Assembly (NCBI GenBank): GCA_963763505.1
Contig: CAVXOZ010000009.1
Span: 463,596 to 527,595, forward strand
DNA from: an uncultured delta proteobacterium
GTDB taxonomy: Bacteria; Myxococcota_A; Polyangia; Polyangiales; Polyangiaceae
Reading direction: 5' to 3'
DNA length: 64,000 nucleotides
Under the pieces are notes generated by a model, which was not told the origin of the DNA, did no database searches, and saw only the letters and a program-made list of their open reading frames with translations. Shown here in pieces: positions 7,020 through 64,000 of the stretch. The stretch's first letter is position 1, and every line of letters starts with the position of its first letter. Made by a program: the position numbers and the translations under genes.

Positions 7020-8099
7020 TCACATCGTCGTCGTCATGGAGTAGTTGGTAAAGGTCCACGTCGCGTTCTTCCCGTTCGTCGAGCAGACCTCGGTCCCGAA
7101 ATCGAACTGGTCCACCGTGGAGTCCGCAGGGAGCCACCCGTGCTGGGCCGCATACTGAAATAGCTGGAGGAGATCCAAGGTGCCGGTCTCGATATTGGTC
7201 GTCAATACGAAGTACACGGTGCCATCGGTACCGCCGTTGCTGGACCACCAGACGTCGTACGTCTTTCCTCCCAGCGATACGTTCGTCGCGACCTGTTTCC
7301 CGCCCGGCGTCTGCCCGTTGTTGTAGACCCAAACCATGAACTCGTTCGCGTTATTGGGGTTGAACCATAGGTCATAGGCGACTTCCCAGTCGTTCTTACT
7401 GCCCGTCGGGGGCTCCACCGTAAATGTGCTCGTGACGCTCTTGAGCGAGCTGAGCGTCGGAGGATGGTCGGAGGGAAAGTTAACCTGCATCGCCGGGTAT
7501 GTCAGAACCGCGGTGTTTCCGGTCGGCTGGTTCGAGTTGACGACAAAATCGACGGTACCGTCACTGTTGAGGCAACCGTACGCTGACTCCGGACCGCAGC
7601 TGTTTCCTCCACAGTTCCACTGGTTGTCGTACAGATCGTAAGTGCTGCCTACATTGCAGGCCTGATTGTCGGAGACGCATGTGGCGTTGGCCATGGTGCA
7701 GGAGGTCCCGGCTGCACCGCCGCTGCTGCCAGTTCCACCGTCACCGCCGGCGTCGCCGGAACCGCCTCCGCTGGCGGTTCCGCTACCGGACCCGCTTCCG
7801 CTGGCCGTTCCACCGCTGGAGCCGCTTCCGCTGCCCGTTCCACCACTGGAGCCGCTGCCGCTGGCCGTTCCACCGCTGGATCCACTTCCGCTGGCCGTTC
7901 CACCACTGGAGCCGCTTCCGCTGGCCGTTCCACCACTGGAGCCGCTGCCGCTGGCCGTTCCGCTGCCGGATCCACCTCCGCTGGCCGGTCCACTATCGGT
8001 TCCGCCCTCGTTTTCGGTGGAATTCGTGGCACTGGAGGAGCACCCGACGACCACGAGCAGGGTCGCGGGCAGAATGAGGGTCGCGGCTCGATGTCTCAT
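7020..8099 (-). CDS. Lipoprotein glycoside hydrolase family 12 (endoglucanase/xyloglucanase-like) with a long Gly/Ser-rich linker
   Basis: Start MRHRAATLILPATLLVVVGCSSS at 8099 (lipobox); the ORF-track start is 8129. GH12 catalytic motifs NEFMVWVY (nucleophile Glu) and FDFGTEV (acid/base Glu). The linker is (SGSGSSGGTA)n. Confidence 0.7.
   Translation of the reverse strand: MRHRAATLILPATLLVVVGCSSSATNSTENEGGTDSGPASGGGSGSGTASGSGSSGGTASGSGSSGGTASGSGSSGGTASGSGSSGGTGSGSGSSGGTASGSGSGSGTASGGGSGDAGGDGGTGSSGGAAGTSCTMANATCVSDNQACNVGSTYDLYDNQWNCGGNSCGPESAYGCLNSDGTVDFVVNSNQPTGNTAVLTYPAMQVNFPSDHPPTLSSLKSVTSTFTVEPPTGSKNDWEVAYDLWFNPNNANEFMVWVYNNGQTPGGKQVATNVSLGGKTYDVWWSSNGGTDGTVYFVLTTNIETGTLDLLQLFQYAAQHGWLPADSTVDQFDFGTEVCSTNGKNATWTFTNYSMTTTM
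7775..8010. repeat. 36-bp tandem repeat (about 6-7 copies) encoding the Gly/Ser linker of the GH12 lipoprotein
   Basis: Direct repeats of ccgctggccgttccaccactggagccgcttccgctg and variants. It gives mirror-image repetitive ORFs on the other strand (7666..8109, 7679..8077), which are artefacts. Confidence 0.8.
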
Positions 8100-8317
8100 C
8101 GTGGGGTAGGCGCCGGCTTGCCTGGTCATGGGTCAAAAATTTTCATGGGGGCAAGCGGGTGATCCAGGTGGCCAGCCGCGGTCCGGAGCTCACCCGGGTG
8201 TACGCGCCGGAGGAGCCCCCGTGAGAGCGGCTCCTACCTCGAGCGCCGCGCGTCTCGCGTGCCCGAAGGTCACGCGAAGTGATGAAGGACCGCCGTCGAG
8301 ATCTCGGGCCGCGAACC

Positions 8318-13665: not shown

Positions 13666-16600
13666 ATGTCACCGAGCCAACCGCGTCATCTCTACGGGCT
13701 TGCCGTACTTTCGGCGGCGATCCTCCTCGATTGCACGAAGGCCGACGTTCCCCCGTCGAACGGGGGCCTGGAAATCGTCCTCGAGAGCGACATGTCGATC
13801 CCGAAGGACATCGACCACGTGCGCCTGACGGTCCGCCAGCAAGGGCAGTCGCTCTTGCAAGTGGACCGGGACGTGGGTCCGAAGGCCCTCCTGATGCCGG
13901 CCTCGTTCGACGTGAAGTCGAACGGCGATGGCGCTCCGGTCGCGGTCCAGGCCGTCGCCTACAAGAACGGTCAGGCCCGCGTAGAGCGCGACGCAGTCAC
14001 GCCGATTCCGCCGGACCACGTCGGCGAACTGCGCCTTCCGCTGAACTATCTCTGCGTCGGCACCGCGCAGTCGGATGCCGACGGCGGCGTGAGCTCGACG
14101 TGCCCGGACGGGCAGACGTGCTCGCAAGGGGCGTGCGTGACGGCGGTCGTTCCGCCGTCGGCCGTGCCCGCGGTCAGCGCGGGAACCGGAGATACCGGCG
14201 CGGGTGCAGACAGCGGACCTCCGGCGACGGCGGGCGCCGACGCGGGAGCGGGTGCCGATTGCTTCGACGTGTCGACGTGCTTGATGGCGGCCGCGCCAGC
14301 CACGGTCGACGCGGCACACTGCACCGTGACGCTGCCGCCTGGCGCGCACTCGGCCAGCGTGAACGTCGCGCTGCAGTTCCCCATCGGGGGCCCCGGGGTG
14401 TGCGGGGTCGATGCGTGCTGGGTGGTGCTCACGGACTGGACGCTGAAGGGCACGCAGATCCAGCTGCCGCAGGCCGCATGCACAATGGCGGCCGCGCAAG
14501 GGGCGAGCCTGGTGATCAGCACGACTTGCGCGACGCAGACCGACTCGGTGCCTGTCTGCGGGCCGTGGTCCTCCGCGACGACGCCAATCACGGAGCCCGC
14601 GACGGGGGGGCCGATCGGGCAGGCTTGCACGACGGCCTTGAGCCAGTCGTGCGGTCTGTGTGGCACTCAGACGCGTACGTGCGTCGAAGGAAACCCGTCG
14701 GCCTGGTCGGCGTGCATGGGCGAGGGCGTGTGCGCGGCGGGCGCGACGCAGGCCTGCGGCACGGGCGGCACCCAGACCTGCGATGCCACCTGCCAATGGG
14801 GAGACTGCGGCTGTCCGAACGGCCTCATCGCGTGTGGGGCGCCCGGCACGTGCGTATCGCCGGACGACGTTCACACGTGCGGCTCGTGCAGCAACGACTG
14901 CTCGGCGCTGCCTCACGTGACCGGCTCCACGACGTGCGCGGCCGGGGCATGCGCCTTCGCGTCGTCGTGCGCCGCCGGCTACGCGGACTGCGACGGCGAC
15001 CCGACGAACGGCTGCGAGACCGACATCACGCAAGCGAGCCACTGCGGCGGCTGCAACACCAGCGCCAAACCCACGGCCTGCTCCGGAGCGACCCCGCTCT
15101 GCTCGCCCTCGGCCGCGACGTACGAGTGCGTCTCCGGTTGCTCTTCGAGCATGCCGACGCTGTGCAGCGGCACGTGCGTCAACACGACCAGCGACCCGAA
15201 AAACTGCGGGACCTGCGGCAACACCTGCAACCTGGCGCACGCGACCGCGTCGTGCGGTAACGGCAGCTGCGTCGTCGCCGCGTGCGCCGCCGGCTACGCC
15301 GATTGCGACGGCGATCCGACGAACGGTTGCGAGACCGACATCACCCAGGCGGCCCACTGCGGCGGGTGCAGCACGACGGCGAAGCCCACCCTGTGCTCCG
15401 GAGGGACCCCCGTCTGTTCGCTCTCGGGGACCACGTACCAGTGCATTTCCGGTTGCCCTTCGAGCACGCCGGCGCTGTGCAGCGGCGCGTGCGTCGACAC
15501 GACGAGCGACGCAAACAACTGCGGGGGCTGCGGAAGCGCCTGCAACCTGGCGCACGCCACCGCCGCGTGCCGTTCCAGCAGCTGCGCGGTCGCGTCGTGC
15601 AGCGCCGGCTACGCCGATTGCGACGGCAGCCCGACGAACGGCTGCGAGACGGACATCACCCAGGCGGCCAATTGCGGCGGCTGCAACACCACCGCGAAGC
15701 CGACGGCCTGCTCCGGTGGGACCCCCCTCTGCTCGCTCTCGGGAACGACGTACGAGTGCGTCTCCGGCTGCTCCTCGAGCATGCCGACGCTGTGCAGCGG
15801 CACCTGCGTCAACACGACGACCGACGCGAACAACTGCGGGGCCTGCGCCAGCGCGTGCAGCCTGGCGCACGCCACCGCCGCGTGCCGTTCCAGTAGCTGC
15901 GCCGTCGCGTCGTGCACCACCGGCTTCGCCGATTGCGACGGTAGCCCGACGAACGGCTGCGAGACGGACATCACCCAGGCAGCCAATTGCGGCGGCTGCA
16001 ACACGACCGCGAAGCCCACCGCGTGCTCCGGCGGCATGACCTGTCAGAGCGGCGCATGCGCGTGCCCCAGCACCTTCCACTCGTGCAGCGGGACGTGCAT
16101 GAGCAACACGTCGGTCGCCAGCTGCGGCTCGTCGTGCGTCGCGTGCACGGCGCCGACCGGAGGGAGCGCGACGTGCAACGGCACTTCGTGCGGGACCAGC
16201 TGTCCGAGCGGCGAGACCGTGTGCAGCGGGGCGTGCGTCAACCTGAACACCAGCACGAGCAACTGCGGATCCTGCGGCAAGGCCTGCGCGGGGACGTGCT
16301 CGGGAGGGACTTGCACACTCCCGACCGCCACGGCCATTGCCGCCGGTAGCCAGGATTCGTGCGCGCTCATGTCCGACGGGACGGTCCGATGTTGGGGCGC
16401 CAACAGCCAGGGCCAGCTCGGCAACGACACGACGACCGATTCGTCGAAGCCCGTCACGGTCTCCGGCCTGAGCGGCGCGACGGCAATCGCGGCGGGCTAC
16501 CAGATGGCGTGCGCGCTGCTCTCGGGCGGAACCGTCGAGTGCTGGGGCGGTAACGACCAAGGCCAGCTCGGCAATGGCACGATGACGGCTTCCTCGACGC

Positions 16601-17376
16601 CCGTCGCCGTCTCCGGCCTGACGGGCGTCACGGCGATCGCGACCACCGCGGAGGCCGAGCACGTCTGCGCGCTGCTCTCGGGCGGTACGGTCAAATGCTG
16701 GGGGTTGAACGCCCACGGCGAACTTGGCAACAACAGCACGAGCAGCTCCCCGACCCCGGTCACGGCCTCCGGGGTGACGGGCGCCACGGCGATCGCCGTG
16801 GGCGCGGACCATACATGCGCGCTGATCTCCGGCGGAACGGCGAAGTGCTGGGGGTTCAACACGTTCGGTCAGCTCGAAAACGGGTCGACGGCAACGACGT
16901 CGACGCCCGGGGCGGCCTCGGAGCTGAATGGTGCCACGGCCATTGTCGCCGGCGGCAACCACACGTGCGCTTTGATGTCCAACGCCACGGAAGTGTGTCG
17001 CGGAGACGATACCGACGGGGAGCTCGGCGACGGACAGATGACCAACTCGTCGGGAGGGATTGCGGTGAGCGGCCTGAGCGGCATCACGGCCTTTTCCGCA
17101 GGGAACATCCACGGCTGCGCCGTGATCGCGGGCGGCGCCGTCGACTGCTGGGGGGAAGACAACTTCGGGGAACTCGGCAACGGAAACACGGCGCCTTCCG
17201 CGACCCCCGTGGCCGTGTCGAACTTGAGCGGCGCCACCGCCGTCGCGGCGGGGGACGATCACACGTGCGCCCTGCTCCCCGCCGGTGTCATCGACTGCTG
17301 GGGGGACAATGGCAACGGGGAACTCGGCAACGGGACGACGACCCAATCGTCCGTCCCCGTGACCGTGAGCTTCTGA
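13666..17376 (+). CDS. Large secreted modular protein: N-terminal domain, 3.4 tandem Cys-rich modules and about 8 RCC1 (regulator of chromosome condensation)-type blades
   Basis: RBS gggaga precedes ATG 13666; signal peptide MSPSQPRHLYGLAVLSAAILLDC. Cys-rich modules CAAGYADCDGDPTNGCETDITQA.HCGGC... repeat every 106 aa. The C-terminal repeats CWG.N..GQLGNG....S..PV.VSGL.G.TAIA.G..H.CAL are RCC1-like. The antisense 1225-aa ORF is an artefact. Confidence 0.85.
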   Translation: MSPSQPRHLYGLAVLSAAILLDCTKADVPPSNGGLEIVLESDMSIPKDIDHVRLTVRQQGQSLLQVDRDVGPKALLMPASFDVKSNGDGAPVAVQAVAYKNGQARVERDAVTPIPPDHVGELRLPLNYLCVGTAQSDADGGVSSTCPDGQTCSQGACVTAVVPPSAVPAVSAGTGDTGAGADSGPPATAGADAGAGADCFDVSTCLMAAAPATVDAAHCTVTLPPGAHSASVNVALQFPIGGPGVCGVDACWVVLTDWTLKGTQIQLPQAACTMAAAQGASLVISTTCATQTDSVPVCGPWSSATTPITEPATGGPIGQACTTALSQSCGLCGTQTRTCVEGNPSAWSACMGEGVCAAGATQACGTGGTQTCDATCQWGDCGCPNGLIACGAPGTCVSPDDVHTCGSCSNDCSALPHVTGSTTCAAGACAFASSCAAGYADCDGDPTNGCETDITQASHCGGCNTSAKPTACSGATPLCSPSAATYECVSGCSSSMPTLCSGTCVNTTSDPKNCGTCGNTCNLAHATASCGNGSCVVAACAAGYADCDGDPTNGCETDITQAAHCGGCSTTAKPTLCSGGTPVCSLSGTTYQCISGCPSSTPALCSGACVDTTSDANNCGGCGSACNLAHATAACRSSSCAVASCSAGYADCDGSPTNGCETDITQAANCGGCNTTAKPTACSGGTPLCSLSGTTYECVSGCSSSMPTLCSGTCVNTTTDANNCGACASACSLAHATAACRSSSCAVASCTTGFADCDGSPTNGCETDITQAANCGGCNTTAKPTACSGGMTCQSGACACPSTFHSCSGTCMSNTSVASCGSSCVACTAPTGGSATCNGTSCGTSCPSGETVCSGACVNLNTSTSNCGSCGKACAGTCSGGTCTLPTATAIAAGSQDSCALMSDGTVRCWGANSQGQLGNDTTTDSSKPVTVSGLSGATAIAAGYQMACALLSGGTVECWGGNDQGQLGNGTMTASSTPVAVSGLTGVTAIATTAEAEHVCALLSGGTVKCWGLNAHGELGNNSTSSSPTPVTASGVTGATAIAVGADHTCALISGGTAKCWGFNTFGQLENGSTATTSTPGAASELNGATAIVAGGNHTCALMSNATEVCRGDDTDGELGDGQMTNSSGGIAVSGLSGITAFSAGNIHGCAVIAGGAVDCWGEDNFGELGNGNTAPSATPVAVSNLSGATAVAAGDDHTCALLPAGVIDCWGDNGNGELGNGTTTQSSVPVTVSF
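14950..16020. repeat. 318-bp tandem repeat, about 3.4 near-identical copies, inside the 13666..17376 CDS
   Basis: Repeat starts at about 14977, 15295, 15607 and 15919, each with gccggctacgc[gc]ga[ct]tgcgacgg.... The encoded 106-aa modules are more than 85% identical. RCC1 units of 156 bp follow from about 16320 to 17370. Confidence 0.85.
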
Positions 17377-17476: not shown

Positions 17477-18871
17477 TTAGGCGGCCGCCACGGAACGGAG
17501 CTCGCCCGCCAGCTCCGTCATCGACTGGTACCGCTCCTCTCGCGGCCGACGCAGGCACTTGAGGATGACGGCTTCGACTCCCGGCGGGACTTCCTCCTTG
17601 AGGCGCGCCCGGAGCGGCAGCGGAGGCTTGGTCATGACGTTGGCGAAGAGAGCCAGGTGACCATTGCCCCCAAACGGGGTGTCGCCCGCGAGGATTTCGT
17701 AGAGCAGAACCCCCATCGACCAGATGTCGGCGCGCAGGTCCACGTCGGTCGCGGCCATCATCTGCTCAGGGGACATGTACGCCGGCGAGCCGACGACCTT
17801 TCCCATGCTCGTGATCCTCGATCCGCCCGCCTCGTCGCCCACGGCGATCCCGAAATCGATCACCTTCACGAGGGGGCCCGCGCCCTGGCCAGCGTCGGCG
17901 AGAAACACGTTGGATGGCTTGACGTCGCGGTGGACCACGCCGAGGGCGTGGGCCTCGGCGATGCCCTCGCACGCGTCGGCGCACCAGGCGAGCGCCTGCC
18001 GGTAGGGTACGCGACCCTGTGTCTCGACGAGGCGGCCTAGGTCGGTGCCTTCGAGGTACTCGAGAGCGAGGTACGGCAGGGCGCCCTGCGTGGCGTCGAG
18101 ATTGCCGACATCGAGGAGCCGGCCGACGTGGGGACTGTGCAGCCGCATGAGGACGCGCGCCTCGCGCACGAACCGCTCGAGAACCTCCTCGTGATTCCGC
18201 CACTCGGGCAAGAGCACCTTGAGGGCGGCGCGGATCCCCCCGCGGTCCCGCGCCTCGAACACGGCACCCGACGCGCCGCGGCCCAGCTCACGGATCACCT
18301 GCCACCGGCCGGCGATCGTCGCTCCCGGCCCGACCGGGAAAGGCGAGGCGGCAGGACCGGAACCACCACCATCGAGTTCGCGACGCAGGCGCAGCTCGCG
18401 CGCGACCTGCCGGGCGAGGCGCTCGAGCGCCGCGAGCTGCCGCGTGGTGAGCGTGCGCGGACGCGTGTCGGCGACAGAGAGCGCCCCGATTGCCGAGCCC
18501 TCCTCGACGAGCAAGGGGACGCCCGCGTAGAAGCGGATGTGCGGATTCCCCATGACGAGCGGGTTGTCCGAGAACCGCGCATCGAGGTGCGTGTCTTCGA
18601 TGACGAGCGGGTGCCGATGGTTGATGCAGTGACCGCAGAACGACAGGTCGCGCGCCGTTCCCTCCTGCTCGACGCCCACGCGTGCCTTGAACCATTGGTA
18701 GTCGGAGTCGACGAGCGTGATGAGGGCAATCTCGGTTCCGCAGAGGTCCGCCGCGAGACGCGCTACTTCGTCGAAGGCTTCCTCGGCCGGCGTGTAGATG
18801 ATGTTGCACGCCCTGAGGAGCGCAAGGCGTCTCTCCTCGTCGTCCGGAATCGGCGGCTCGATCATGGCCAT
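17477..18871 (-). CDS. GAF domain-containing Ser/Thr protein kinase
   Basis: N-terminal GAF (ALITLVDSDYQWFKARVG...FCGHCI). The kinase carries GRGASGAVFEA (Gly loop), ALK (VAIK-like), HRDVKPSNVFL, DFG and SPAYMSPE. Start is probably MAMIEPP at 18871 rather than 18910. Confidence 0.85.
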   Translation of the reverse strand: MAMIEPPIPDDEERRLALLRACNIIYTPAEEAFDEVARLAADLCGTEIALITLVDSDYQWFKARVGVEQEGTARDLSFCGHCINHRHPLVIEDTHLDARFSDNPLVMGNPHIRFYAGVPLLVEEGSAIGALSVADTRPRTLTTRQLAALERLARQVARELRLRRELDGGGSGPAASPFPVGPGATIAGRWQVIRELGRGASGAVFEARDRGGIRAALKVLLPEWRNHEEVLERFVREARVLMRLHSPHVGRLLDVGNLDATQGALPYLALEYLEGTDLGRLVETQGRVPYRQALAWCADACEGIAEAHALGVVHRDVKPSNVFLADAGQGAGPLVKVIDFGIAVGDEAGGSRITSMGKVVGSPAYMSPEQMMAATDVDLRADIWSMGVLLYEILAGDTPFGGNGHLALFANVMTKPPLPLRARLKEEVPPGVEAVILKCLRRPREERYQSMTELAGELRSVAAA

Positions 18872-57806: not shown

Positions 57807-58289
57807 TCACTGGCACGTGCCCGTCATGTTGCCGAAGTTCGCGACCGTCGACAGGCTGACGTTGCAGACGGACACCGAGAACGGCCCGCTCACCTCGCCG
57901 CTCGAAAAGACGGCATCCACCGTCCCTTCGATAAGGGTCGAGCTTACGGTGGTGTACGTGACGGTGCCGCTCGTGGCCATGAGTTGTGCGGTCGTCTGGC
58001 AAGCGGGACCGTCGGTCATGTATTGCACCTGAGTCGCTCCCGCGCCGACGTCGAACGTCCCCGGTTGCACCGGTTCCGGCGCGGCGACGCCGATGAGGAT
58101 CACGGCGCCATTTGGCTGCAGCGAGTCGGACATGACCGACGAACACGCGCCCTTCCACGAAGTGAGCGCCACGTCCGCCTCGTAACCCGACGCACCATTG
58201 ACCGTGACTTGACCCGCAAGGCCCGCGATCGAGGTCGCCACCTGCAGCGCCAGCACCGGGCCGACGGAGACGTGCCCCAGCGGCGACAC
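57807..58289 (-). CDS. Possible small secreted Thr/Ser/Val-rich protein; start uncertain
   Basis: Frame 57807..58634 has coding-like GC3 over its last about 160 codons (...VTVNGASGYEADVALTSWKGACSS...NFGNMTGTCQ*) but no convincing start or signal peptide. Divergent from the htrA-like gene. Confidence 0.3.
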   Translation of the reverse strand: MSPLGHVSVGPVLALQVATSIAGLAGQVTVNGASGYEADVALTSWKGACSSVMSDSLQPNGAVILIGVAAPEPVQPGTFDVGAGATQVQYMTDGPACQTTAQLMATSGTVTYTTVSSTLIEGTVDAVFSSGEVSGPFSVSVCNVSLSTVANFGNMTGTCQ

Positions 58290-58334
58290 GTGCGTGAGCG
58301 GCTGCTGCCAGGCACCGGCAGGTCCTCCCCCGAA

Positions 58335-59342
58335 GTGAGGCCGCGGCGAGACGCCGTCGCAAGAACGAGCATAGGCTCCGTGGGGTTGCTGGCGCTGGGG
58401 TTGGCGGCGTGTCATGCGCCGTCCGACGGCCCCGGCGCCGGCGGCCCGCCGGGCGCCGCCGAGGCTCTGCGCGCGGGAACCGCGGCCGCAGTGCGGGTCC
58501 TGCCCTCCGGGGGGATGGCGCAGGCCTCGGGCTCGGGCTTCGTGCTCCGCGCCGATACGGGCGAACAAGTCATCGTGACGAATGCCCATGTCGTGTGGGG
58601 AGCGAGCGAGATCGCGATTGAGACGAACGACCATGCCACCGAGCGAGCCACGGTCGCGGGGGTCGACCCCGCGGTCGACCTCGCGGTCCTGCTGCCGCGT
58701 ACCAAGCTGTCGGTGGTTCCGCTCCGCTTCGAGTCGGACGAAGCGCTGCGGCTGGGGGACTGGCTCGGATCGGTGGGGAGTCCGGCCGGGGTTCTGAACG
58801 CGGTGAGCGTGGGTATCCTGTCAGCCCGGTCCACGGTCCCGGACGCAACGGTTCAGGCACAATCGTCGATCGATCATCTGTTCACGGACGCGGTTCTGAG
58901 TCCCGGGAGCAGCGGCGGGCCGCTGCTCGACGCGCGGGGCCGCGTCGTCGGGGTCAACGTCGCGATGCTCGGCACGTCGCGTGGGCTCGGAATCGCCATC
59001 CCGAGTCACCTCGCGGCGCCGGTGGTGGCCCGGCTCCTTCGCGACGGCGCCTATCCGCACGGGCGCTCGGGCATCCGCGTCGCGGACGCGAGCCCCGGAG
59101 GGCACGTGCGCGTCGTCTCCGTGGCGCCCGCCGACGCAGGCGACGAACTGGCCATCCGGAGCGGCGACCTCATCCTCGCCGTCGGCGGCCAAAGCGTGCA
59201 GAACGCCAGCGATTTCCGTATGCGCGAATTCATGGACGTACCTGGGACGAGGTGGCAGATTGAGATCGAACGTGATAAGCAAAGGATCACAACATCATGG
59301 GTATTGCGCGAATGGCCCACAGCGGCGCTCTCGCCGCGTTGA
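58335..59342 (+). CDS. HtrA/DegP-like trypsin-fold serine protease (S1C) with a C-terminal PDZ domain, lipoprotein
   Basis: GTG 58335 gives MRPRRDAVARTSIGSVGLLALGLAACHAP (lipobox). Catalytic triad context TNAHVV, DLAVL and GSSGGPLLD. PDZ region GIRVADASPGGHVRVVSVAPADAGDELAIRSGDLILAVGG. Confidence 0.8.
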   Translation: MRPRRDAVARTSIGSVGLLALGLAACHAPSDGPGAGGPPGAAEALRAGTAAAVRVLPSGGMAQASGSGFVLRADTGEQVIVTNAHVVWGASEIAIETNDHATERATVAGVDPAVDLAVLLPRTKLSVVPLRFESDEALRLGDWLGSVGSPAGVLNAVSVGILSARSTVPDATVQAQSSIDHLFTDAVLSPGSSGGPLLDARGRVVGVNVAMLGTSRGLGIAIPSHLAAPVVARLLRDGAYPHGRSGIRVADASPGGHVRVVSVAPADAGDELAIRSGDLILAVGGQSVQNASDFRMREFMDVPGTRWQIEIERDKQRITTSWVLREWPTAALSPR

Positions 59343-59740
59343 TGTGGGTGGCTTCCGGCTGTGCCGGCGAACGGCAAGACGTCCTCGACGCGCACGACGC
59401 GCGCGCAGGAGTGGTGCGCGTCTTCGACGTCCCCGCGGACGTCGCCTGGGCGGCAGCGCGGGCCGCGATGCGCTGGAATCACGCCGACGCCATCGAAGAA
59501 CATCGGAGCCAGGGATACATGCTCGCCACAGCTGGCGCGCAAGGCTGGAGCTGGGGTGCGACGATGGGAGTCTGGCTCGAGGGCTCGGGTCCGGGGGGCA
59601 CCCAGGTGCGTGCCATCGTGAGCCGCAAGTTGGCCGCGAATGTCACGGCCCAGAGCGAGGGGGCGCTGCTCGACGACATGCAAAAGGCCGTCGAACTCGA
59701 AAAGCGAGGAGAGGCCCTTCCCGACGCCGCGCCGGAGTGA
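59297..59740 (+). CDS. Small hypothetical lipoprotein
   Basis: RBS aaagga precedes ATG 59297. MGIARMAHSGALAALMWVASGCAG lipobox. It overlaps the htrA-like 3' end by 46 nt. Confidence 0.5.
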   Translation: MGIARMAHSGALAALMWVASGCAGERQDVLDAHDARAGVVRVFDVPADVAWAAARAAMRWNHADAIEEHRSQGYMLATAGAQGWSWGATMGVWLEGSGPGGTQVRAIVSRKLAANVTAQSEGALLDDMQKAVELEKRGEALPDAAPE

Positions 59741-59842
59741 GCGACCTAGCGCCTCGCCGTTTCCGTCCTGCGGGTGACGAGAGGGCAACGCCGCCGTGCG
59801 CGATGTCGGACCGAAATATTTGAAAAAAGTGACCCTCACGTA

Positions 59843-60172
59843 CGAGGGACGCGTCCCTCGCAGCGAGTAGCGGGCCCGCGGGGACGAGCAACGCGTCCCT
59901 CCTACATGAGGAGCGCGTCCCTCCTACATGAGGAGCGCGTCCCTCGTACTCGAGCAACGCGCTGCTCGAAGGCGCGGGCCCGCCCGCGGGGACGAGCAAC
60001 GCGTCCCTCCTACATGAGGAGCGCGTCCCTCGTACTCGAGCAACGCGCTGCTCGAAGGCGCGGGCCCGCCCGCGGGGACGAGCAACGCGTCCCTCCTACA
60101 TGAGGAGCGCGTCCCTCGTACTCGAGCAACGCGCTGCTCGAAGGCGCGGGCCCGCCCGCAGGGGCAAGCAGC
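59843..60172. repeat. Intergenic tandem repeat array of period about 86 bp (3.5 copies; the first copy carries an extra 22-bp internal duplication), with nested palindromes
   Basis: The unit cgcggggacgagcaacgcgtccctcctacatgaggagcgcgtccctcgtactcgagcaacgcgctgctcgaaggcgcgggcccgcc recurs at about 59877, 59985 and 60071. It contains gagggacgcgtccctc (a perfect 16-bp palindrome at 59843), stems gggacg/cgtccc and a hairpin tcgagca-acgcgc-tgctcga. Confidence 0.85.
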
Positions 60173-60251
60173 GCGCTGCAGCGGGCCTGGGCGCGGCGCG
60201 GGCCGAGCTGCGACTTCTTGGTGCCAGCAAGCCGATGCTACGGTTGCGTCC

Positions 60252-60575
60252 ATGAACCGGACGACGATCGCAATCGCGTGGACCGCGGCGGCCGTGCTCA
60301 CGACGGCGGCCGGATGCAGCAGCTCTAGTTCGGGCCCGGGCCCCGCGGACGCCGCGGCGATGAAAGAGTCGGGCCAGAGCGACGCGGTCGCTGCCTCGGA
60401 CGCCTCCCCCTGCTGCGACGACGACGGCAGCTGCAGCCCGTGCGTCGCCCCGGAGGCCGGCACGTGCGCGGCGGCGGGCGGGCAGTGCTTCTCCGGTCAA
60501 ATCACCTGTCCGGATCTGGGCGCTCTGGATTGCGCGTCCGGAACCACCTGTTGCCGCACGTCGGCGAGTCCCTGA
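60252..60575 (+). CDS. Small Cys-rich lipoprotein, hypothetical
   Basis: MNRTTIAIAWTAAAVLTTAAGCSS lipobox. 107 aa with 12 Cys. Directly downstream of the repeat array. Confidence 0.5.
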   Translation: MNRTTIAIAWTAAAVLTTAAGCSSSSSGPGPADAAAMKESGQSDAVAASDASPCCDDDGSCSPCVAPEAGTCAAAGGQCFSGQITCPDLGALDCASGTTCCRTSASP

Positions 60576-60678
60576 CACGGCGGCTCCCTGACCACCTGGT
60601 TCGGACGCTGGCCAGCCAGCGGATCGAAGCGCGGTCGCGTGCGGGTCTCACGCAAGCCGAGGTCGCCCGGCGCGAGGT

Positions 60679-61662
60679 CTACTGCCGCCGATCGATCGAT
60701 CGTGCCTCGTTCTTGCGCGAGAACCACGTGCTGGAGAGGTGCCTCGGCAGCGCCGACGCGTACAGGCAATCGCGCAGCGCGTTGGTCTCCCACGTCACGT
60801 TGGAATGATAGAGGCTCGTGCGCACGAAGACGGCCTCGGCGTGCGACAGCTCTTTGCGCGACAGCTCGCCCTCCTGGAGCTCGGACGCCGTGAGGACGCC
60901 CGCGCGGTCGAGCTGCGCGCGCAGGGCACTGTTGTTCGTGTCGGTCGAGGTCCCGTCGACGAAGAAGCTCACGAGCTTGTGTCGGCGGTGCAAAGACGCC
61001 CCCTTGCGCGAGGTGACCCAGTCGCGGAACGTCTCGACCTCCGAATAGAGCGCGTCGAAGAGGTACGTCTCGCGCACGTCCAGCCCACCACCCCGCAGGC
61101 AACACGCGGCTGCGTGGAAGCCGCCCGAGTGCGCGCTCACGCACACGGTGCCGCGACGTGCATGAATCGGGAAGCGGGCATCGCCCAGCGTCGAACGCCC
61201 CTCGTGCGCCGTCGTGACGATCGCCTCGGCGACGAGCCGCGCGAGCCCGCCGGAGGTCTCGAGCTTCCCGCACGACGAGTCCGTGGCCATGACCGCGAGC
61301 TGAGGGACGACGAGGATCGCGTTTTGCCGGCTGTCCGCCAGCTGCTCGCGCAGCTCATGCGCGGTCATGGCGCGCTCCGCGGTCGTGCTGTGACCGTGAA
61401 GGTGCACGAGCACGCCGACGCCTTCGTCATCGTCGTCGTAGTCGTAGCGGTAATGAGAGGGCACGAAGACGATGACCGTGTCGTCGCGGTACCCGGCGCC
61501 AGGGGCAGGGAACGGCGCGTTCTCGAGCGACAGCCAAAACGTGGTGCCGCGCGAGTCGTGAGTGGTCGACTTGAGCTTCGTCGGCACCTGGGCGCCGGCC
61601 CGACGGGTCAGGGAAACGAGGGGCGCCGCTGCGAGAGCGGCCAGGAAAGTGCGCCGGTGCAT
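60679..61662 (-). CDS. Tat-signal secreted hypothetical protein
   Basis: Internal start MHRRTFLAALAAAPLVSLTRRAGAQ has a twin-arginine motif RRTFLAA. A VHLHGHS motif is present. The upstream 54 codons of the ORF are probably non-coding. Confidence 0.55.
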   Translation of the reverse strand: MHRRTFLAALAAAPLVSLTRRAGAQVPTKLKSTTHDSRGTTFWLSLENAPFPAPGAGYRDDTVIVFVPSHYRYDYDDDDEGVGVLVHLHGHSTTAERAMTAHELREQLADSRQNAILVVPQLAVMATDSSCGKLETSGGLARLVAEAIVTTAHEGRSTLGDARFPIHARRGTVCVSAHSGGFHAAACCLRGGGLDVRETYLFDALYSEVETFRDWVTSRKGASLHRRHKLVSFFVDGTSTDTNNSALRAQLDRAGVLTASELQEGELSRKELSHAEAVFVRTSLYHSNVTWETNALRDCLYASALPRHLSSTWFSRKNEARSIDRRQ

Positions 61663-61711
61663 GGCCAACTCTACAGATCGCCGCGCCGGGGACAAGACGT
61701 CAAGTCCTCTG

Positions 61712-64000
61712 TCATCGCCCGCCAGCGCAGAGGCGCTCGATGCACTCGATGACGCGATCAAGCCGGAGCGGTTTGGCAAAGTGTTCGGTGAACCCGCTCG
61801 CGAGCGCGCGCTGGCGATCTGCATCCTGCGCGTAGCCGGTGACGGCCACGATAGGCGTATCCGCGAAGCCCGGCACGCCCCGCAACTGCTGCGCCAGCTC
61901 GTAGCCGTCCATCACGGGCAGCCCGATATCGAGGAAGGCAATCTCGGGCGTAAACGTCCGGACCACCTGCAGCGCGCTCGGCCCGTCGTCCGCTGTCCGC
62001 ACCTCGTGCCCGGCCCGGGTGAGCCCCTCCTGCAGGAGCTCGGCGGCGTCCGGGTTGTCGTCCACGACGAGCACGCGGCGCGGCGCACCGGGCGACTCGC
62101 AGGACGCCGAGATCGTCCGCGTGGCCCGATGCCGGCAAGGGCGCGTCCGCGCGCGGCAGGCGCACGACCATCGTCGTGCCCCGGCCCGGACCCGCGCTCC
62201 GTGCCTCGATCGTGCCGCCGTGAGCGACGACGAGCTGGCGCGCGATGGACAGCCCTAGACCGAGCCCGCCCTGCCTGCGATCGAGCCCTTGCCGCCCCTG
62301 GGTGAAGGGGTCGAAGACTCGTTGCAGGAGCTCCGGCTCGATGCCCGCTCCGTCGTCGGCTACCTCGAGCGCGACCTGCCCCGCGTCAGCGCGGGCGAGC
62401 ACCGTGATGTGCCCGCCAGGCAGCGTGTACTTTGCCGCATTCGTGAGCAGGTTCGTGATCACCTGCGCGAGGCGCTCGCTGTCCGCCTCGACGAAGAGCC
62501 GCGCGTGCGGCACCGACACCGTGAGCTGGTGCCTTCGCTCTTTGACGAGGGGTCCGGCCATCTCGATCGCCCCGGCGACGATCGCAGCCACGTCGACGGG
62601 CGCGCGCTCGAGGCTCAGTTCGCCGCGCACCCCGCGCGACACGTCGAGCAGGTCGTCGACCAAGCGCGTGAGGTGCCTGACCTGCCGCTCGATGACGGCC
62701 CGCTCGCGCTCGAGCACTCCGCCACCCCGCAAGCGCATCAGGTGCAGCGCGGTGACGATCGGCGCCAGCGGGTTCCGCAGCTCGTGCCCGAGCATCGCCA
62801 GGAATTCGTCCTTGGCCCGACTCGCCTCGTCGGCAGAGGCATGCGCCGCCTTCTCGGCGGTCACGTCGATGGCGGTGGCCACCGCGGCCTCGATGGTCCC
62901 GTCGTCGCCGCGGATCGGCGCGGCCCGGACGTGGATCCAGCCCTCCGCCCCGTTCAGGCGCGTGATGCGCAGCTCCTGGCCTTCCACGACCTCGCCGCGC
63001 AGAGCGCGCACGATGGGCCAGTCCTCCTTGGCGAGAGGGCGCCCGTCGGGGAAGCTGGCGCGCAGAATCTGGCCCCGATCCTCGCCACGCGGCGGAAAGC
63101 CCTTTGCTCTCCAGAGGTGCGCCATCGCATCGTTCGTGAAGACGAGCTCGCCGTCCGGCGCTCCCGCCACGATCGCCCCCACCGGCAACCGTTCGAGCAC
63201 GCATTGAAGACGCCGCTCCGCGCGACGCGCGTCGCCGTACAGGCGCGCCCGCGCGAGGGCATCCGCGCAGTGCTCCGCGATGGTCGCCGCGAAGCTGCGT
63301 TCCTCGGGCGAGAAGCGCCGCGGTCGTCCGGCACTCAACGCGAGCACACCGAGTACGCTATCGTCACGCACCAGCGGGAAGGCCCCGTACGCGCGGAACG
63401 CCTGCCCTCGTCCAAGCGCCTCCGCGACGGCGGGGTGCTCGTCGCCGAGGTCCGCCTCGCTCTCGTACCAGACGGCACGCCGCTCGCGCGCGACGCGCGC
63501 CCCCGGCAGGCTCGAATCGCCCCGCATGTGCCGGAACGGCCCCAGGATGGCCTCCGTCGTTTGGTGCGCGCCAAGCAACCGGAGGTCGCCCCGCTCGTCG
63601 ATCGCCCACATGGCCGACGCCGAGAGCCCGAGCGCCTCGGTGCTGATCCGCGTGGCCAGCTGTGCAATCTCCTCGACCGTTGCGGCCGATGAGAGCGCCG
63701 CTGTGAGCTGCTGCAGGCGCTGCAGCCGCTCCCGAGTCGCCTTCTCGCGCTCGACGAAGTTCGCGCGCTCCAAGGCCTGCGCCGCATGGTGCGCGAGCAC
63801 AGCGAGGAAAACGCGCTCGTCCTCGCCGAAGGCGCGGACGCCCGGGAAGACGAGCGACACGCCGCCGATGGCGCGCCCGTGGACGACGAACGGCAGGCAC
63901 GCATACGAGAGCTCGCGGAATGCCTCGAGCTCGGGGCCGCCCTTCTCGGCAACCGGGTAGCGTTCGCGGAAGTCGGCCCGCGACTCGAAGAAGAGCACTT
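61712..64000 (-). CDS. Hybrid sensor histidine kinase (GAF-GAF-PAS-HisKA-HATPase_c-REC), 5' end beyond the window; apparent frameshift near 62100 between the kinase and the receiver
   Basis: H-box FLAMLGHELRNPLAPI and the N/G boxes (NLLTNAAKYT, DDGAGI, GGLGLGLSI) sit in frame 61758..63998. The receiver MLVVDDNPDAAELL...FLDIGLP continues in frame 61712..62074 after a 1-nt shift inside gcccggtgcgccgcgccgcg. The antisense 467-aa ORF is an artefact. Confidence 0.75.

What the first reader, a model, noticed from the sequence alone, without database searches (positions are those of the whole stretch)
59843..60172. 86-bp-period tandem repeat array rich in nested palindromes in an intergenic region
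About 3.5 almost perfect copies of an 86-bp unit are present, with a 22-bp intra-unit duplication in copy 1. Each unit contains MluI-type palindromes (gagggacgcgtccctc), stem-loops gggacg-N7-cgtccc and tcgagca-acgcgc-tgctcga. It sits between an HtrA-like protease plus small lipoprotein gene and a small Cys-rich lipoprotein gene. There are no unique spacers, so it is not CRISPR. It could be (a) an array of operator sites for a dimeric regulator, (b) a REP/MITE-like structured repeat, (c) a stable multi-hairpin RNA element or attenuator upstream of 60252, or (d) a hypervariable VNTR.
Basis: seen in the sequence. Interest (0 to 1): 0.6.

Follow-up and report, generated by a model that had tools for sequence, protein, structure and literature searches.

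The report
Lineage-specific 86-bp intergenic tandem repeat
A stretch of spacer DNA between two small genes of an uncultured soil myxobacterium (Polyangiaceae) has recently been copied head-to-tail about three and a half times, whereas related lineages show a single copy; it is an ordinary bacterial minisatellite with no sign of a dedicated function.

Summary
An 86-bp unit is repeated about 3.5 times (59870-60149, plus a degenerate tail to 60212). Copies 2 and 3 are identical, and copy 1 carries an extra 22-bp sub-unit. The unit is itself built of about 22-bp sub-repeats, each holding a 16-bp quasi-palindrome GAG-N3-CGCG-N3-CTC.

Two syntenic contigs from a sister lineage (about 93% DNA identity) show only one, diverged copy of the unit at the same place. 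They lack the 22-bp duplication and the tail. A 99.9%-identical contig has the same array with one SNP. So this is a recent, lineage-specific amplification, and a short GCCCG microhomology lies at the copy junction.

The single-copy orthologues are not unusually structured (fold z about 0, against -3 to -4 for the window unit), so the palindromes are not conserved. The unit occurs nowhere else in the 64-kb window or in about 200 kb of related loci. An exact-pattern scan of the genome, metagenome and viral collections gave only isolated single matches, 15 in all, and none in viral contigs. There is no Rfam match and no plasmid match, and no DNA-binding regulator gene lies nearby.

The downstream gene appears to carry its own promoter in the 39 nt before its ATG, downstream of the array.

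Best reading: a minisatellite/VNTR made by slippage or unequal recombination. Any regulatory effect is unproven. Interest is low.

The parts
59844..59859 (.). The only perfect 16-bp palindrome, GAGGGACGCGTCCCTC. It lies on the 5' edge, outside the 86-bp units.
   Evidence: The orthologous position in L017/L018 reads GAGGGACGCCTCCCTC.
59870..59977 (.). Copy 1 of the unit: 86 nt plus an extra 22-mer (59914-59935 duplicates 59892-59913).
   Evidence: It matches copy 2 at 84 of 86 positions once the extra 22-mer is removed.
59978..60063 (.). Copy 2 of the 86-bp unit, built of sub-repeats of 22+22+22+20 nt.
   Evidence: It is identical to copy 3.
60064..60149 (.). Copy 3 of the 86-bp unit.
60150..60212 (.). 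Degenerate tail: a diverged copy that lacks the two middle 22-mers. It is absent from L017/L018.
   Evidence: TRF extends the array to 60175.
60213..60251 (+). Conserved 39-nt segment proximal to the 107-aa gene (ACTTCTTGG ... TGCTACnnT, then 7 nt, then ATG). It is the probable promoter of a leaderless or near-leaderless mRNA (inference).
   Evidence: Homology with L027, which has a different context, starts at 60213. The motif columns are invariant in four sequences.
60252..60575 (+). Gene for a 107-aa Cys-rich lipoprotein-like protein, downstream of the array.
   Evidence: One homologue cluster was found. No Pfam or NCBIfam family.
59297..59740 (+). Upstream 147-aa gene. It overlaps the end of the HtrA-like gene, and its stop codon lies about 130 nt before copy 1.
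58380..59342 (+). HtrA-like serine protease gene (Trypsin_2 + PDZ).
59810..59848 (-). AT-rich patch (26% GC over 59810-59832) and a minus-strand terminator-like hairpin with a T-run, at the 5' edge. Both are specific to the window lineage.

Best explanation
The array is a young, lineage-specific minisatellite (VNTR) in non-coding spacer DNA of a Polyangiaceae-like bacterium.

Proposed history (the order of events and the molecular pathway are inferred):
- An 86-bp piece of the spacer between the 147-aa gene and the 107-aa gene was already made of about 22-bp sub-repeats.
- It was duplicated in tandem across a short GCCCG microhomology.
- It was then amplified to three copies by replication slippage or unequal recombination.
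- A 22-bp slippage event occurred in copy 1.
- An older, internally deleted copy remains as the tail.

Shown directly: the repeat structure, the identity of the copies, the apparent single diverged copy at the orthologous site in a sister lineage, the lack of other copies, and the lack of conserved structure.

The array most likely has no dedicated function. Its probable consequence is only to lengthen and restructure the DNA upstream of the 107-aa gene's own promoter and downstream of the HtrA/147-aa genes.
For: - Repeat structure and near-perfect copies.
- L017 and L018 have the same gene order and about 93% DNA identity in the flanks. They show one unit, 87% identical to the window unit, in a 239-nt spacer against 511 nt in the window. 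They have no 22-bp duplication and no tail.
- L001, 99.9% identical over this region, has the same copy number and one SNP.
- Junction reading. The 5' flank reads GCGGGCCCG|CGGGGAC. The 3' end of the unit in L017 reads GCCCCGCCCG|AGCTG. The copy junction in the window reads GCCCGCCCG|CGGGGAC.
- The window unit folds unusually well (RNA z -3.0 on the + strand and -3.6 on the - strand; DNA z -4.0). The orthologous single units do not (z -0.67, +0.18, -0.84, +0.10; DNA -0.65).
- A profile of the unit finds nothing outside the orthologous sites in the window plus 30 loci.
- The exact pattern gives only single isolated matches in unrelated taxa: 10 in GTDB representative genomes, 5 in JGI metagenomes, 0 in viral contigs.
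- No Rfam family and no plasmid match.
- Other short intergenic tandem repeats occur in related contigs: L028 3541-3646 and L030 767-823.
Against: - L017 and L018 may be short-read assemblies, in which identical tandem copies can be collapsed. Their copy number is therefore a minimum. However, the missing 22-bp duplication, the missing diverged tail and the less uniform sub-repeats are real sequence differences.
- Only 64 kb of this genome is available, so a dispersed family elsewhere in the genome cannot be excluded.
- The 11 quasi-palindromes phased at about 22 bp (two helical turns), lying directly upstream of a probable promoter, are what a protein-binding array would look like.
- Lack of function cannot be shown from sequence alone.
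Confidence: 0.7

Rival explanations
1. Copy-number-variable upstream repeat with a regulatory effect. The phased 16-bp quasi-palindromes would bind a dimeric regulator, or simply change promoter geometry. Expansion or contraction would then tune transcription of the 107-aa lipoprotein gene, as described for promoter tandem repeats in Mycobacterium tuberculosis.
For: - 11 matches to GAGNNNCGCGNNNCTC at 20-22 bp phasing.
- The array ends directly upstream of the conserved promoter-like 39-nt segment.
- Copy number differs between lineages.
- There is precedent for promoter tandem-repeat copy-number variation with phenotypic effects in M. tuberculosis (PMC12817950).
Against: - The quasi-palindromes are degraded in the orthologous single copy (CGCGGTACTC and CGCATCCCGC instead of CGCGTCCCTC).
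- No DNA-binding regulator gene among the neighbours examined, which are a Ser/Thr kinase, DUF899, a GAF-PAS histidine kinase and a receiver-only response regulator.
- The unit contains no sigma-70-like promoter.
- The motif is barely enriched elsewhere in the window: 3 matches against 0.78 expected.
Confidence: 0.13
2. RNA-level element. The ancestral unit would be the U-tract-less terminator or 3' stabiliser of the HtrA/147-aa transcript, and the amplification would stack several such hairpins as an insulator in front of the next gene.
For: - The array starts about 130 nt after the stop codon of the 147-aa gene, on the same strand.
- The array folds very stably (z -6.3 on the + strand, -8.5 on the - strand).
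- The hairpin TCGAGCA-N6-TGCTCGA is kept in L017/L018, with changes that remain G-U pairs on the + strand.
Against: - No U-tract follows the hairpins. The only + strand terminator-like site is a weak one at 60197-60212.
- The orthologous single units are not more stable than shuffles.
- No Rfam family.
- Strong folding on both strands is expected of any palindrome-rich tandem repeat.
Confidence: 0.12
3. Member of a dispersed REP/BIME/MITE-like or MIRU-like family that happens to be tandemly arrayed at this site.
For: The unit is palindrome-rich, GC-rich and intergenic, and lies between genes of the same orientation.
Against: - No other copy in the 64-kb window or in about 200 kb of related loci.
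- Only isolated single matches to the exact pattern in the genome and metagenome collections, and none in the viral collection.
- No terminal inverted repeats or target-site duplication. Sister lineages have the unit at the same site as ordinary spacer sequence.
Confidence: 0.03
4. Assembly or polishing artefact that inflates the copy number.
For: Contig L001 ends about 100 nt after the array, as contigs often do near repeats.
Against: Two contigs that differ elsewhere carry the same array with one SNP. They differ by a 3.47-kb indel and are 96% identical upstream.
Confidence: 0.02

Closest known systems
Bacterial minisatellites / VNTR loci, for example the exact tandem repeats used for MLVA typing of high-GC bacteria
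   Same: Head-to-tail copies of a unit tens of bp long, in an intergenic position. The copies are nearly identical, the copy number differs between close lineages, and the edge copy is degenerate.
   Different: The unit has a clear higher-order structure (22+22+22+20 nt) with quasi-palindromes. Variation has been seen only between two lineages of an uncultured organism, not within a population.
MIRU (mycobacterial interspersed repetitive units) of Mycobacterium tuberculosis
   Same: Minisatellites in a high-GC genome, mostly intergenic between co-oriented genes, with copy-number variation (PMC3635867).
   Different: MIRUs are one family dispersed over many loci. By my own knowledge (Supply et al. 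1997, not read here), they often carry short ORFs coupled to the flanking genes. Here no second locus was found, and the 86-nt period cannot keep a reading frame.
Promoter tandem repeats with phase-variable copy number in M. tuberculosis
   Same: A tandem duplication of upstream DNA whose copy number varies between lineages (PMC12817950).
   Different: There the repeated unit includes promoter sequence and the effects on phenotype were documented. Here the unit contains no recognisable promoter and lies upstream of the inferred one, and no expression data exist.
REP/BIME palindromic units of enterobacteria
   Same: GC-rich imperfect palindromes clustered in intergenic regions after the 3' end of genes (my own knowledge).
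   Different: REP elements are a genome-wide family of hundreds of copies arranged in alternating orientation. This unit is unique to one locus in all the sequence examined, and its copies are in direct orientation.

Membership tests
Minisatellite / VNTR | Head-to-tail copies of a unit of about 10-100 bp, far beyond chance | tested here: met
   TRF period 86, 3.0 copies, 97% matches, score 496. Copies 2 and 3 are identical.
Minisatellite / VNTR | Copy number differs between related strains or lineages at the same locus | tested here: met
   One unit in the syntenic contigs L017/L018, against about 3.5 in the window and L001. Caveat: collapse of identical copies in short-read contigs cannot be excluded.
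Minisatellite / VNTR | Hypervariability within a population | not testable with these tools
   Only one near-identical second contig (L001) is available, and it has the same copy number. No read data.
MIRU-like interspersed minisatellite family | The same unit family present at many loci of the genome | tested here: inconclusive
   No other copy in the 64-kb window or the fetched loci. Only isolated single matches in the public collections. The rest of this genome is not available.
MIRU-like interspersed minisatellite family | The unit keeps a reading frame or short ORFs coupled to the flanking genes | tested here: not met
   86 is not a multiple of 3. ORFs across the array change frame from copy to copy.
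REP/BIME or MITE | Dispersed multi-copy family, and for MITEs terminal inverted repeats with a target-site duplication | tested here: not met
   No dispersed copies in the sequence examined. The unit borders show GCCCG microhomology, not TIR/TSD. The unit is ordinary orthologous spacer in L017/L018.
CRISPR array | Repeats separated by unique spacers of similar length | tested here: not met
   The copies abut directly and nothing unique lies between them.
Operator or iteron array | Cognate DNA-binding protein gene adjacent | tested here: not met
   The neighbours within about 6 kb are a protease, hypothetical proteins, a Ser/Thr kinase, DUF899, a histidine kinase and a receiver-only response regulator. 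No plasmid similarity.
Operator or iteron array | Binding-site motif conserved at the orthologous locus | tested here: not met
   In L017/L018 two of the three intra-unit cores differ at 2-3 positions and self-complementarity is lost. The fold z-scores are about 0.
Known structured RNA family (Rfam) | Match to a covariance model at the gathering score | tested here: not met
   No family at the gathering score in the whole window. In the permissive scan the only match was a chance-level Plasmodium RUF6-5 hit, 21.8 bits against a threshold of 70.
Type III toxin-antitoxin (ToxI-like repeat RNA) | Tandem RNA repeats directly upstream of an endoribonuclease toxin gene | tested here: not met
   The downstream gene encodes a 107-aa signal-peptide, Cys-rich protein with no family match. 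The sister lineage has a single unit.
Promoter tandem repeat (M. tuberculosis type) | Copy number changes promoter output | not testable with these tools
   Only position is known: the array ends at the conserved promoter-like segment.

The most novel reading that the evidence does not exclude
The array is a contingency-type upstream repeat. Eleven quasi-palindromic 16-mers phased at two helical turns would be bound by an unidentified dimeric regulator, or would alter DNA geometry. Gain and loss of 86-bp or 22-bp units would then switch expression of a leaderless Cys-rich lipoprotein gene in a social soil myxobacterium.
Probability: 0.1. Interest if true: 0.45.

Novelty: new member of a known kind. 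Interest (0 to 1): 0.15.

Why it matters
It matters little beyond this locus. The array is a clean example of how a palindrome-rich "structured" repeat can arise by recent amplification and homogenisation of ordinary spacer DNA. Striking hairpins and phased palindromes in a single genome are therefore not evidence of function by themselves.

It could serve as a strain marker for this uncultured Polyangiaceae lineage. If copy number turned out to affect the neighbouring lipoprotein gene, it would extend promoter-repeat phase variation, so far documented in mycobacteria, to myxobacteria.

Tried and rejected
- Rfam. The permissive scan of 58000-62000 and the gathering-level scan of the whole window found nothing credible.
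- Exact-pattern scans with CGCGTCCCTCNNACNNGAGNANCGCG, which matches 7 times inside the array:
  - 10 single matches in unrelated taxa in the genome collection.
  - 5 single matches in metagenomes.
  - None in viral contigs.
  - These patterns are strict. They missed even the true orthologues L017/L018, so diverged relatives would not be seen.
- blastn-short and an nhmmer profile of the unit against the window and all loci found only the orthologous sites.
- A plasmid similarity search, to test the iteron idea, found nothing.
- Synteny through more distant homologues of the 147-aa protein (L019-L026) failed. The genes are in unrelated contexts and have no array.
- Synteny through homologues of the 327-aa gene (L028-L030) failed in the same way.
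- A sigma-54 promoter in CTTGGTGCCAGCAAGC was rejected by eye, because the GG-to-GC spacing is one base short of the consensus.
- The sigma-70 consensus scan found no promoter in 59300-60700.
- The ToxI-like, CRISPR, retron and integron attC ideas were rejected on architecture: there are no spacers, no toxin, reverse transcriptase or integrase gene, and the flanking genes are convergent.
- The first run of the nhmmer profile search produced no output for a technical reason. It was repeated successfully.

Full report
**1. The observation**

- Tandem Repeats Finder reports an 86-bp period over 59914-60175 (3.0 copies, 97% matches, score 496).
- It also reports a weaker nested 22-bp period over 59884-60133 (11.5 copies, 64% matches).

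Writing the sequence in register gives:
- a 5' edge with the only perfect 16-bp palindrome, GAGGGACGCGTCCCTC (59844-59859);
- copy 1 at 59870-59977, which holds an extra 22-mer (59914-59935 repeats 59892-59913);
- copies 2 and 3 at 59978-60063 and 60064-60149, which are identical;
- a degenerate tail at 60150-60212.

Each unit is 22+22+22+20 nt. Three of its four sub-units carry a 16-mer of the form GAG-N3-CGCG-N3-CTC that is 12-14/16 self-complementary.
- That pattern has 14 matches in the window, 11 of them here, against 0.78 expected.
The rest is right.

The array is non-coding: 86 is not a multiple of three, and the ORFs that cross it are artefacts.

G+C is 72% in the array against 68% in the window. 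A 26%-GC patch lies at 59810-59832.

**2. Context**

- Upstream, on the same strand, are a Trypsin_2+PDZ (HtrA-like) protease gene (58380-59342) and an overlapping 147-aa gene (59297-59740).
- Downstream is a 107-aa Cys-rich gene with a signal peptide and lipobox (60252-60575).
- Next comes a convergent gene of about 327 aa (60679-61708 on the minus strand; the longest ORF runs to 61824).
- After that come a receiver-only response regulator and a GAF-PAS histidine kinase.
- No DNA-binding regulator is among the neighbours examined.

Source names of homologues ("Polyangiaceae bacterium" MAGs) and hits to the MXAN_6577-like Cys-rich family place the organism in the Polyangiaceae (Myxococcota). 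This placement is an inference.

**3. Is it dispersed?**

- The unit and its core motif occur nowhere else in the 64-kb window.
- A profile built from the window and orthologous units finds only the orthologous sites in the window plus 30 fetched loci.
- A 20-specified-base pattern that matches seven times inside the array gave only isolated single matches, the pattern expected of chance matches:
  - 10 in unrelated taxa among GTDB representative genomes;
  - 5 in JGI metagenomes;
  - none in viral contigs.
- There is no Rfam match and no similarity to plasmids.

**4. The decisive comparison**

*Contig L001.* The exact 147-aa protein is also encoded on an ENA contig, L001.
- L001 is 99.9% identical over 58226-60266.
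- It differs upstream by a 3.47-kb indel and 96% identity.
- It carries the same array with one SNP.

*Contigs L017 and L018.* A 99%-identical protein is encoded on two JGI contigs, L017 and L018.
- They have the same gene order and about 93% DNA identity.
- Their spacer is 239 nt instead of 511 nt.
- It contains one unit (L017 3605-3690, L018 2213-2298), 87% identical to the window unit.
- It has neither the 22-bp duplication nor the tail.

The amplification therefore happened after the 93% lineages split and before the window and L001 split.

*The junction.* The junction fits a microhomology-mediated duplication. These sequences are shown directly; the pathway is inferred.
- The 5' border reads GCGGGCCCG|CGGGGAC.
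- The 3' border in L017 reads GCCCCGCCCG|AGCTG.
- The copy junction in the window reads GCCCGCCCG|CGGGGAC.

*Caveat.* If L017 and L018 are short-read assemblies, identical tandem copies could have been collapsed, so "one copy" is a minimum. The missing 22-mer, the missing diverged tail and the less uniform sub-repeats are real differences in any case.

**5. Is the structure conserved?**

- The whole array folds far better than shuffles on both strands (z -6.3 and -8.5).
- So does a single window unit (RNA z -3.0 and -3.6; DNA z -4.0).
- The orthologous single units in L017 and L018 do not (z -0.67, +0.18, -0.84, +0.10; DNA -0.65).

In L017/L018 the cores read CGCCTCCCTC, CGCGGTACTC and CGCATCCCGC, where the window has CGCGTCCCTC three times.
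- 5 of the 11 differences in the unit fall in the 20 core positions.
- This suggests that the window lineage homogenised its sub-repeats. With no outgroup, this is suggestion only.

Only the hairpin TCGAGCA-N6-TGCTCGA is kept, with G-U-compatible changes on the + strand.

So the "nested palindromes" are largely a derived property of the amplified copies, not a conserved element.

**6. Relation to the downstream gene**

- A fourth contig, L027, carries the 107-aa gene at 93.5% DNA identity in an unrelated context. Homology runs from window 60213 to 60584, that is from 39 nt before the ATG to 9 nt after the stop.
- In all four sequences, ACTTCTTGG and TGCTACnnT are invariant. The latter ends 7 nt before the ATG, and there is no Shine-Dalgarno sequence.
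- I infer an extended -10 promoter and a leaderless or near-leaderless mRNA.
- If that is right, the array lies upstream of the transcription start of this gene and cannot be its leader or attenuator.

**7. Explanations**

*Best (0.7).* A young minisatellite/VNTR formed by duplication across microhomology and then by slippage or unequal exchange at both the 86-bp and the 22-bp register, with no dedicated function. Other short intergenic tandem repeats in related contigs (L028 3541-3646, L030 767-823) suggest that this is a common mutational outcome in these genomes.

*Rivals.*
- A copy-number-variable upstream regulatory repeat, as in M. tuberculosis promoter tandem repeats (PMC12817950): 0.13.
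- A stacked terminator or insulator for the HtrA/147-aa transcript: 0.12.
- A dispersed REP/MITE/MIRU-type family: 0.03.
- An assembly artefact: 0.02.

**8. Comparison with known kinds**

- It works like, and meets the structural definition of, a bacterial minisatellite.
- It resembles MIRUs (intergenic, high-GC, copy-number variable; PMC3635867). It fails the frame-keeping feature, and dispersal could not be shown.
- It is not a CRISPR array, a REP/BIME element, a MITE, an iteron array, a ToxI-like repeat or any Rfam family, by the tests listed in the membership table.

**9. Verdict**

The feature is real and is correctly described apart from one detail. It is a new member of a known kind, of low interest (0.15). 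The least ordinary reading still open is a contingency-type upstream repeat that controls the lipoprotein gene (probability about 0.1).

Noticed in passing
window 58225|58226 (L001 1647-5119): The window lacks 3.47 kb that is present in L001, L017 and L018 immediately upstream of the HtrA-like gene. The missing piece includes most of an 810-aa gene. The junction is clean (GGCCCG|CGATCG). This is either a deletion in this strain or a mis-join in assembly.
   Followed up: partly
window 60679-61708 (-); L028 3955-4990, L029 3954-4987, L030 3955-4999: The gene of about 327 aa next to the locus recurs at 90-94.5% DNA identity in three unrelated genomic contexts. Homology stops exactly at the stop codon and about 46 nt upstream of the start. 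More than 1000 homologues exist, many named Polyangiaceae. It behaves like a multi-copy or cassette-like gene family.
   Followed up: partly
window 60213-60584; L027 696-1067: The 107-aa Cys-rich gene, with only 39 nt of upstream sequence, is found at 93.5% identity in a different context. There it follows an unrelated ORF and precedes an acetyltransferase gene.
   Followed up: partly
window 59810-59848: An AT-rich patch (26% GC; AAATATTTGAAAAAAG) sits next to a minus-strand hairpin plus T-run (CCCTCGTACGTGAGGG TCACTTTTTT) that resembles an intrinsic terminator for a leftward transcript through the array. The 16-nt AT-rich insertion is absent from L017/L018.
   Followed up: partly
L028 3541-3646; L030 767-823: Other short intergenic tandem repeats in related Polyangiaceae-like contigs: 30 bp x 3.5 copies and 28 bp x 2 copies.
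   Followed up: no
window 7758-7993, 14963-16031, 16510-16796: Large in-frame tandem repeats with periods of 30/90, 315 and 156 bp. The 315-bp and 156-bp arrays lie inside the 1236-aa ORF 13666-17376, which hits the MXAN_6577-like Cys-rich family. The 30/90-bp array lies within the span of ORF 7020-8129; its coding status was not checked.
   Followed up: no
L018 2111-2677: The source's gene caller extended the 107-aa gene upstream across the whole spacer, giving a 188-aa product. In L017 the gene is called from the ATG that corresponds to the window's start. The extension is probably an annotation artefact of high-GC DNA.
   Followed up: partly
window 8241, 11395, 52798: Three further matches to GAGNNNCGCGNNNCTC outside the array, against 0.78 expected for the whole window. 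They were not examined.
   Followed up: no
window 18216-18293 (-): tRNA-Ser (anticodon CGA). It is the only tRNA in the window, which has no Rfam family at the gathering score.
   Followed up: no
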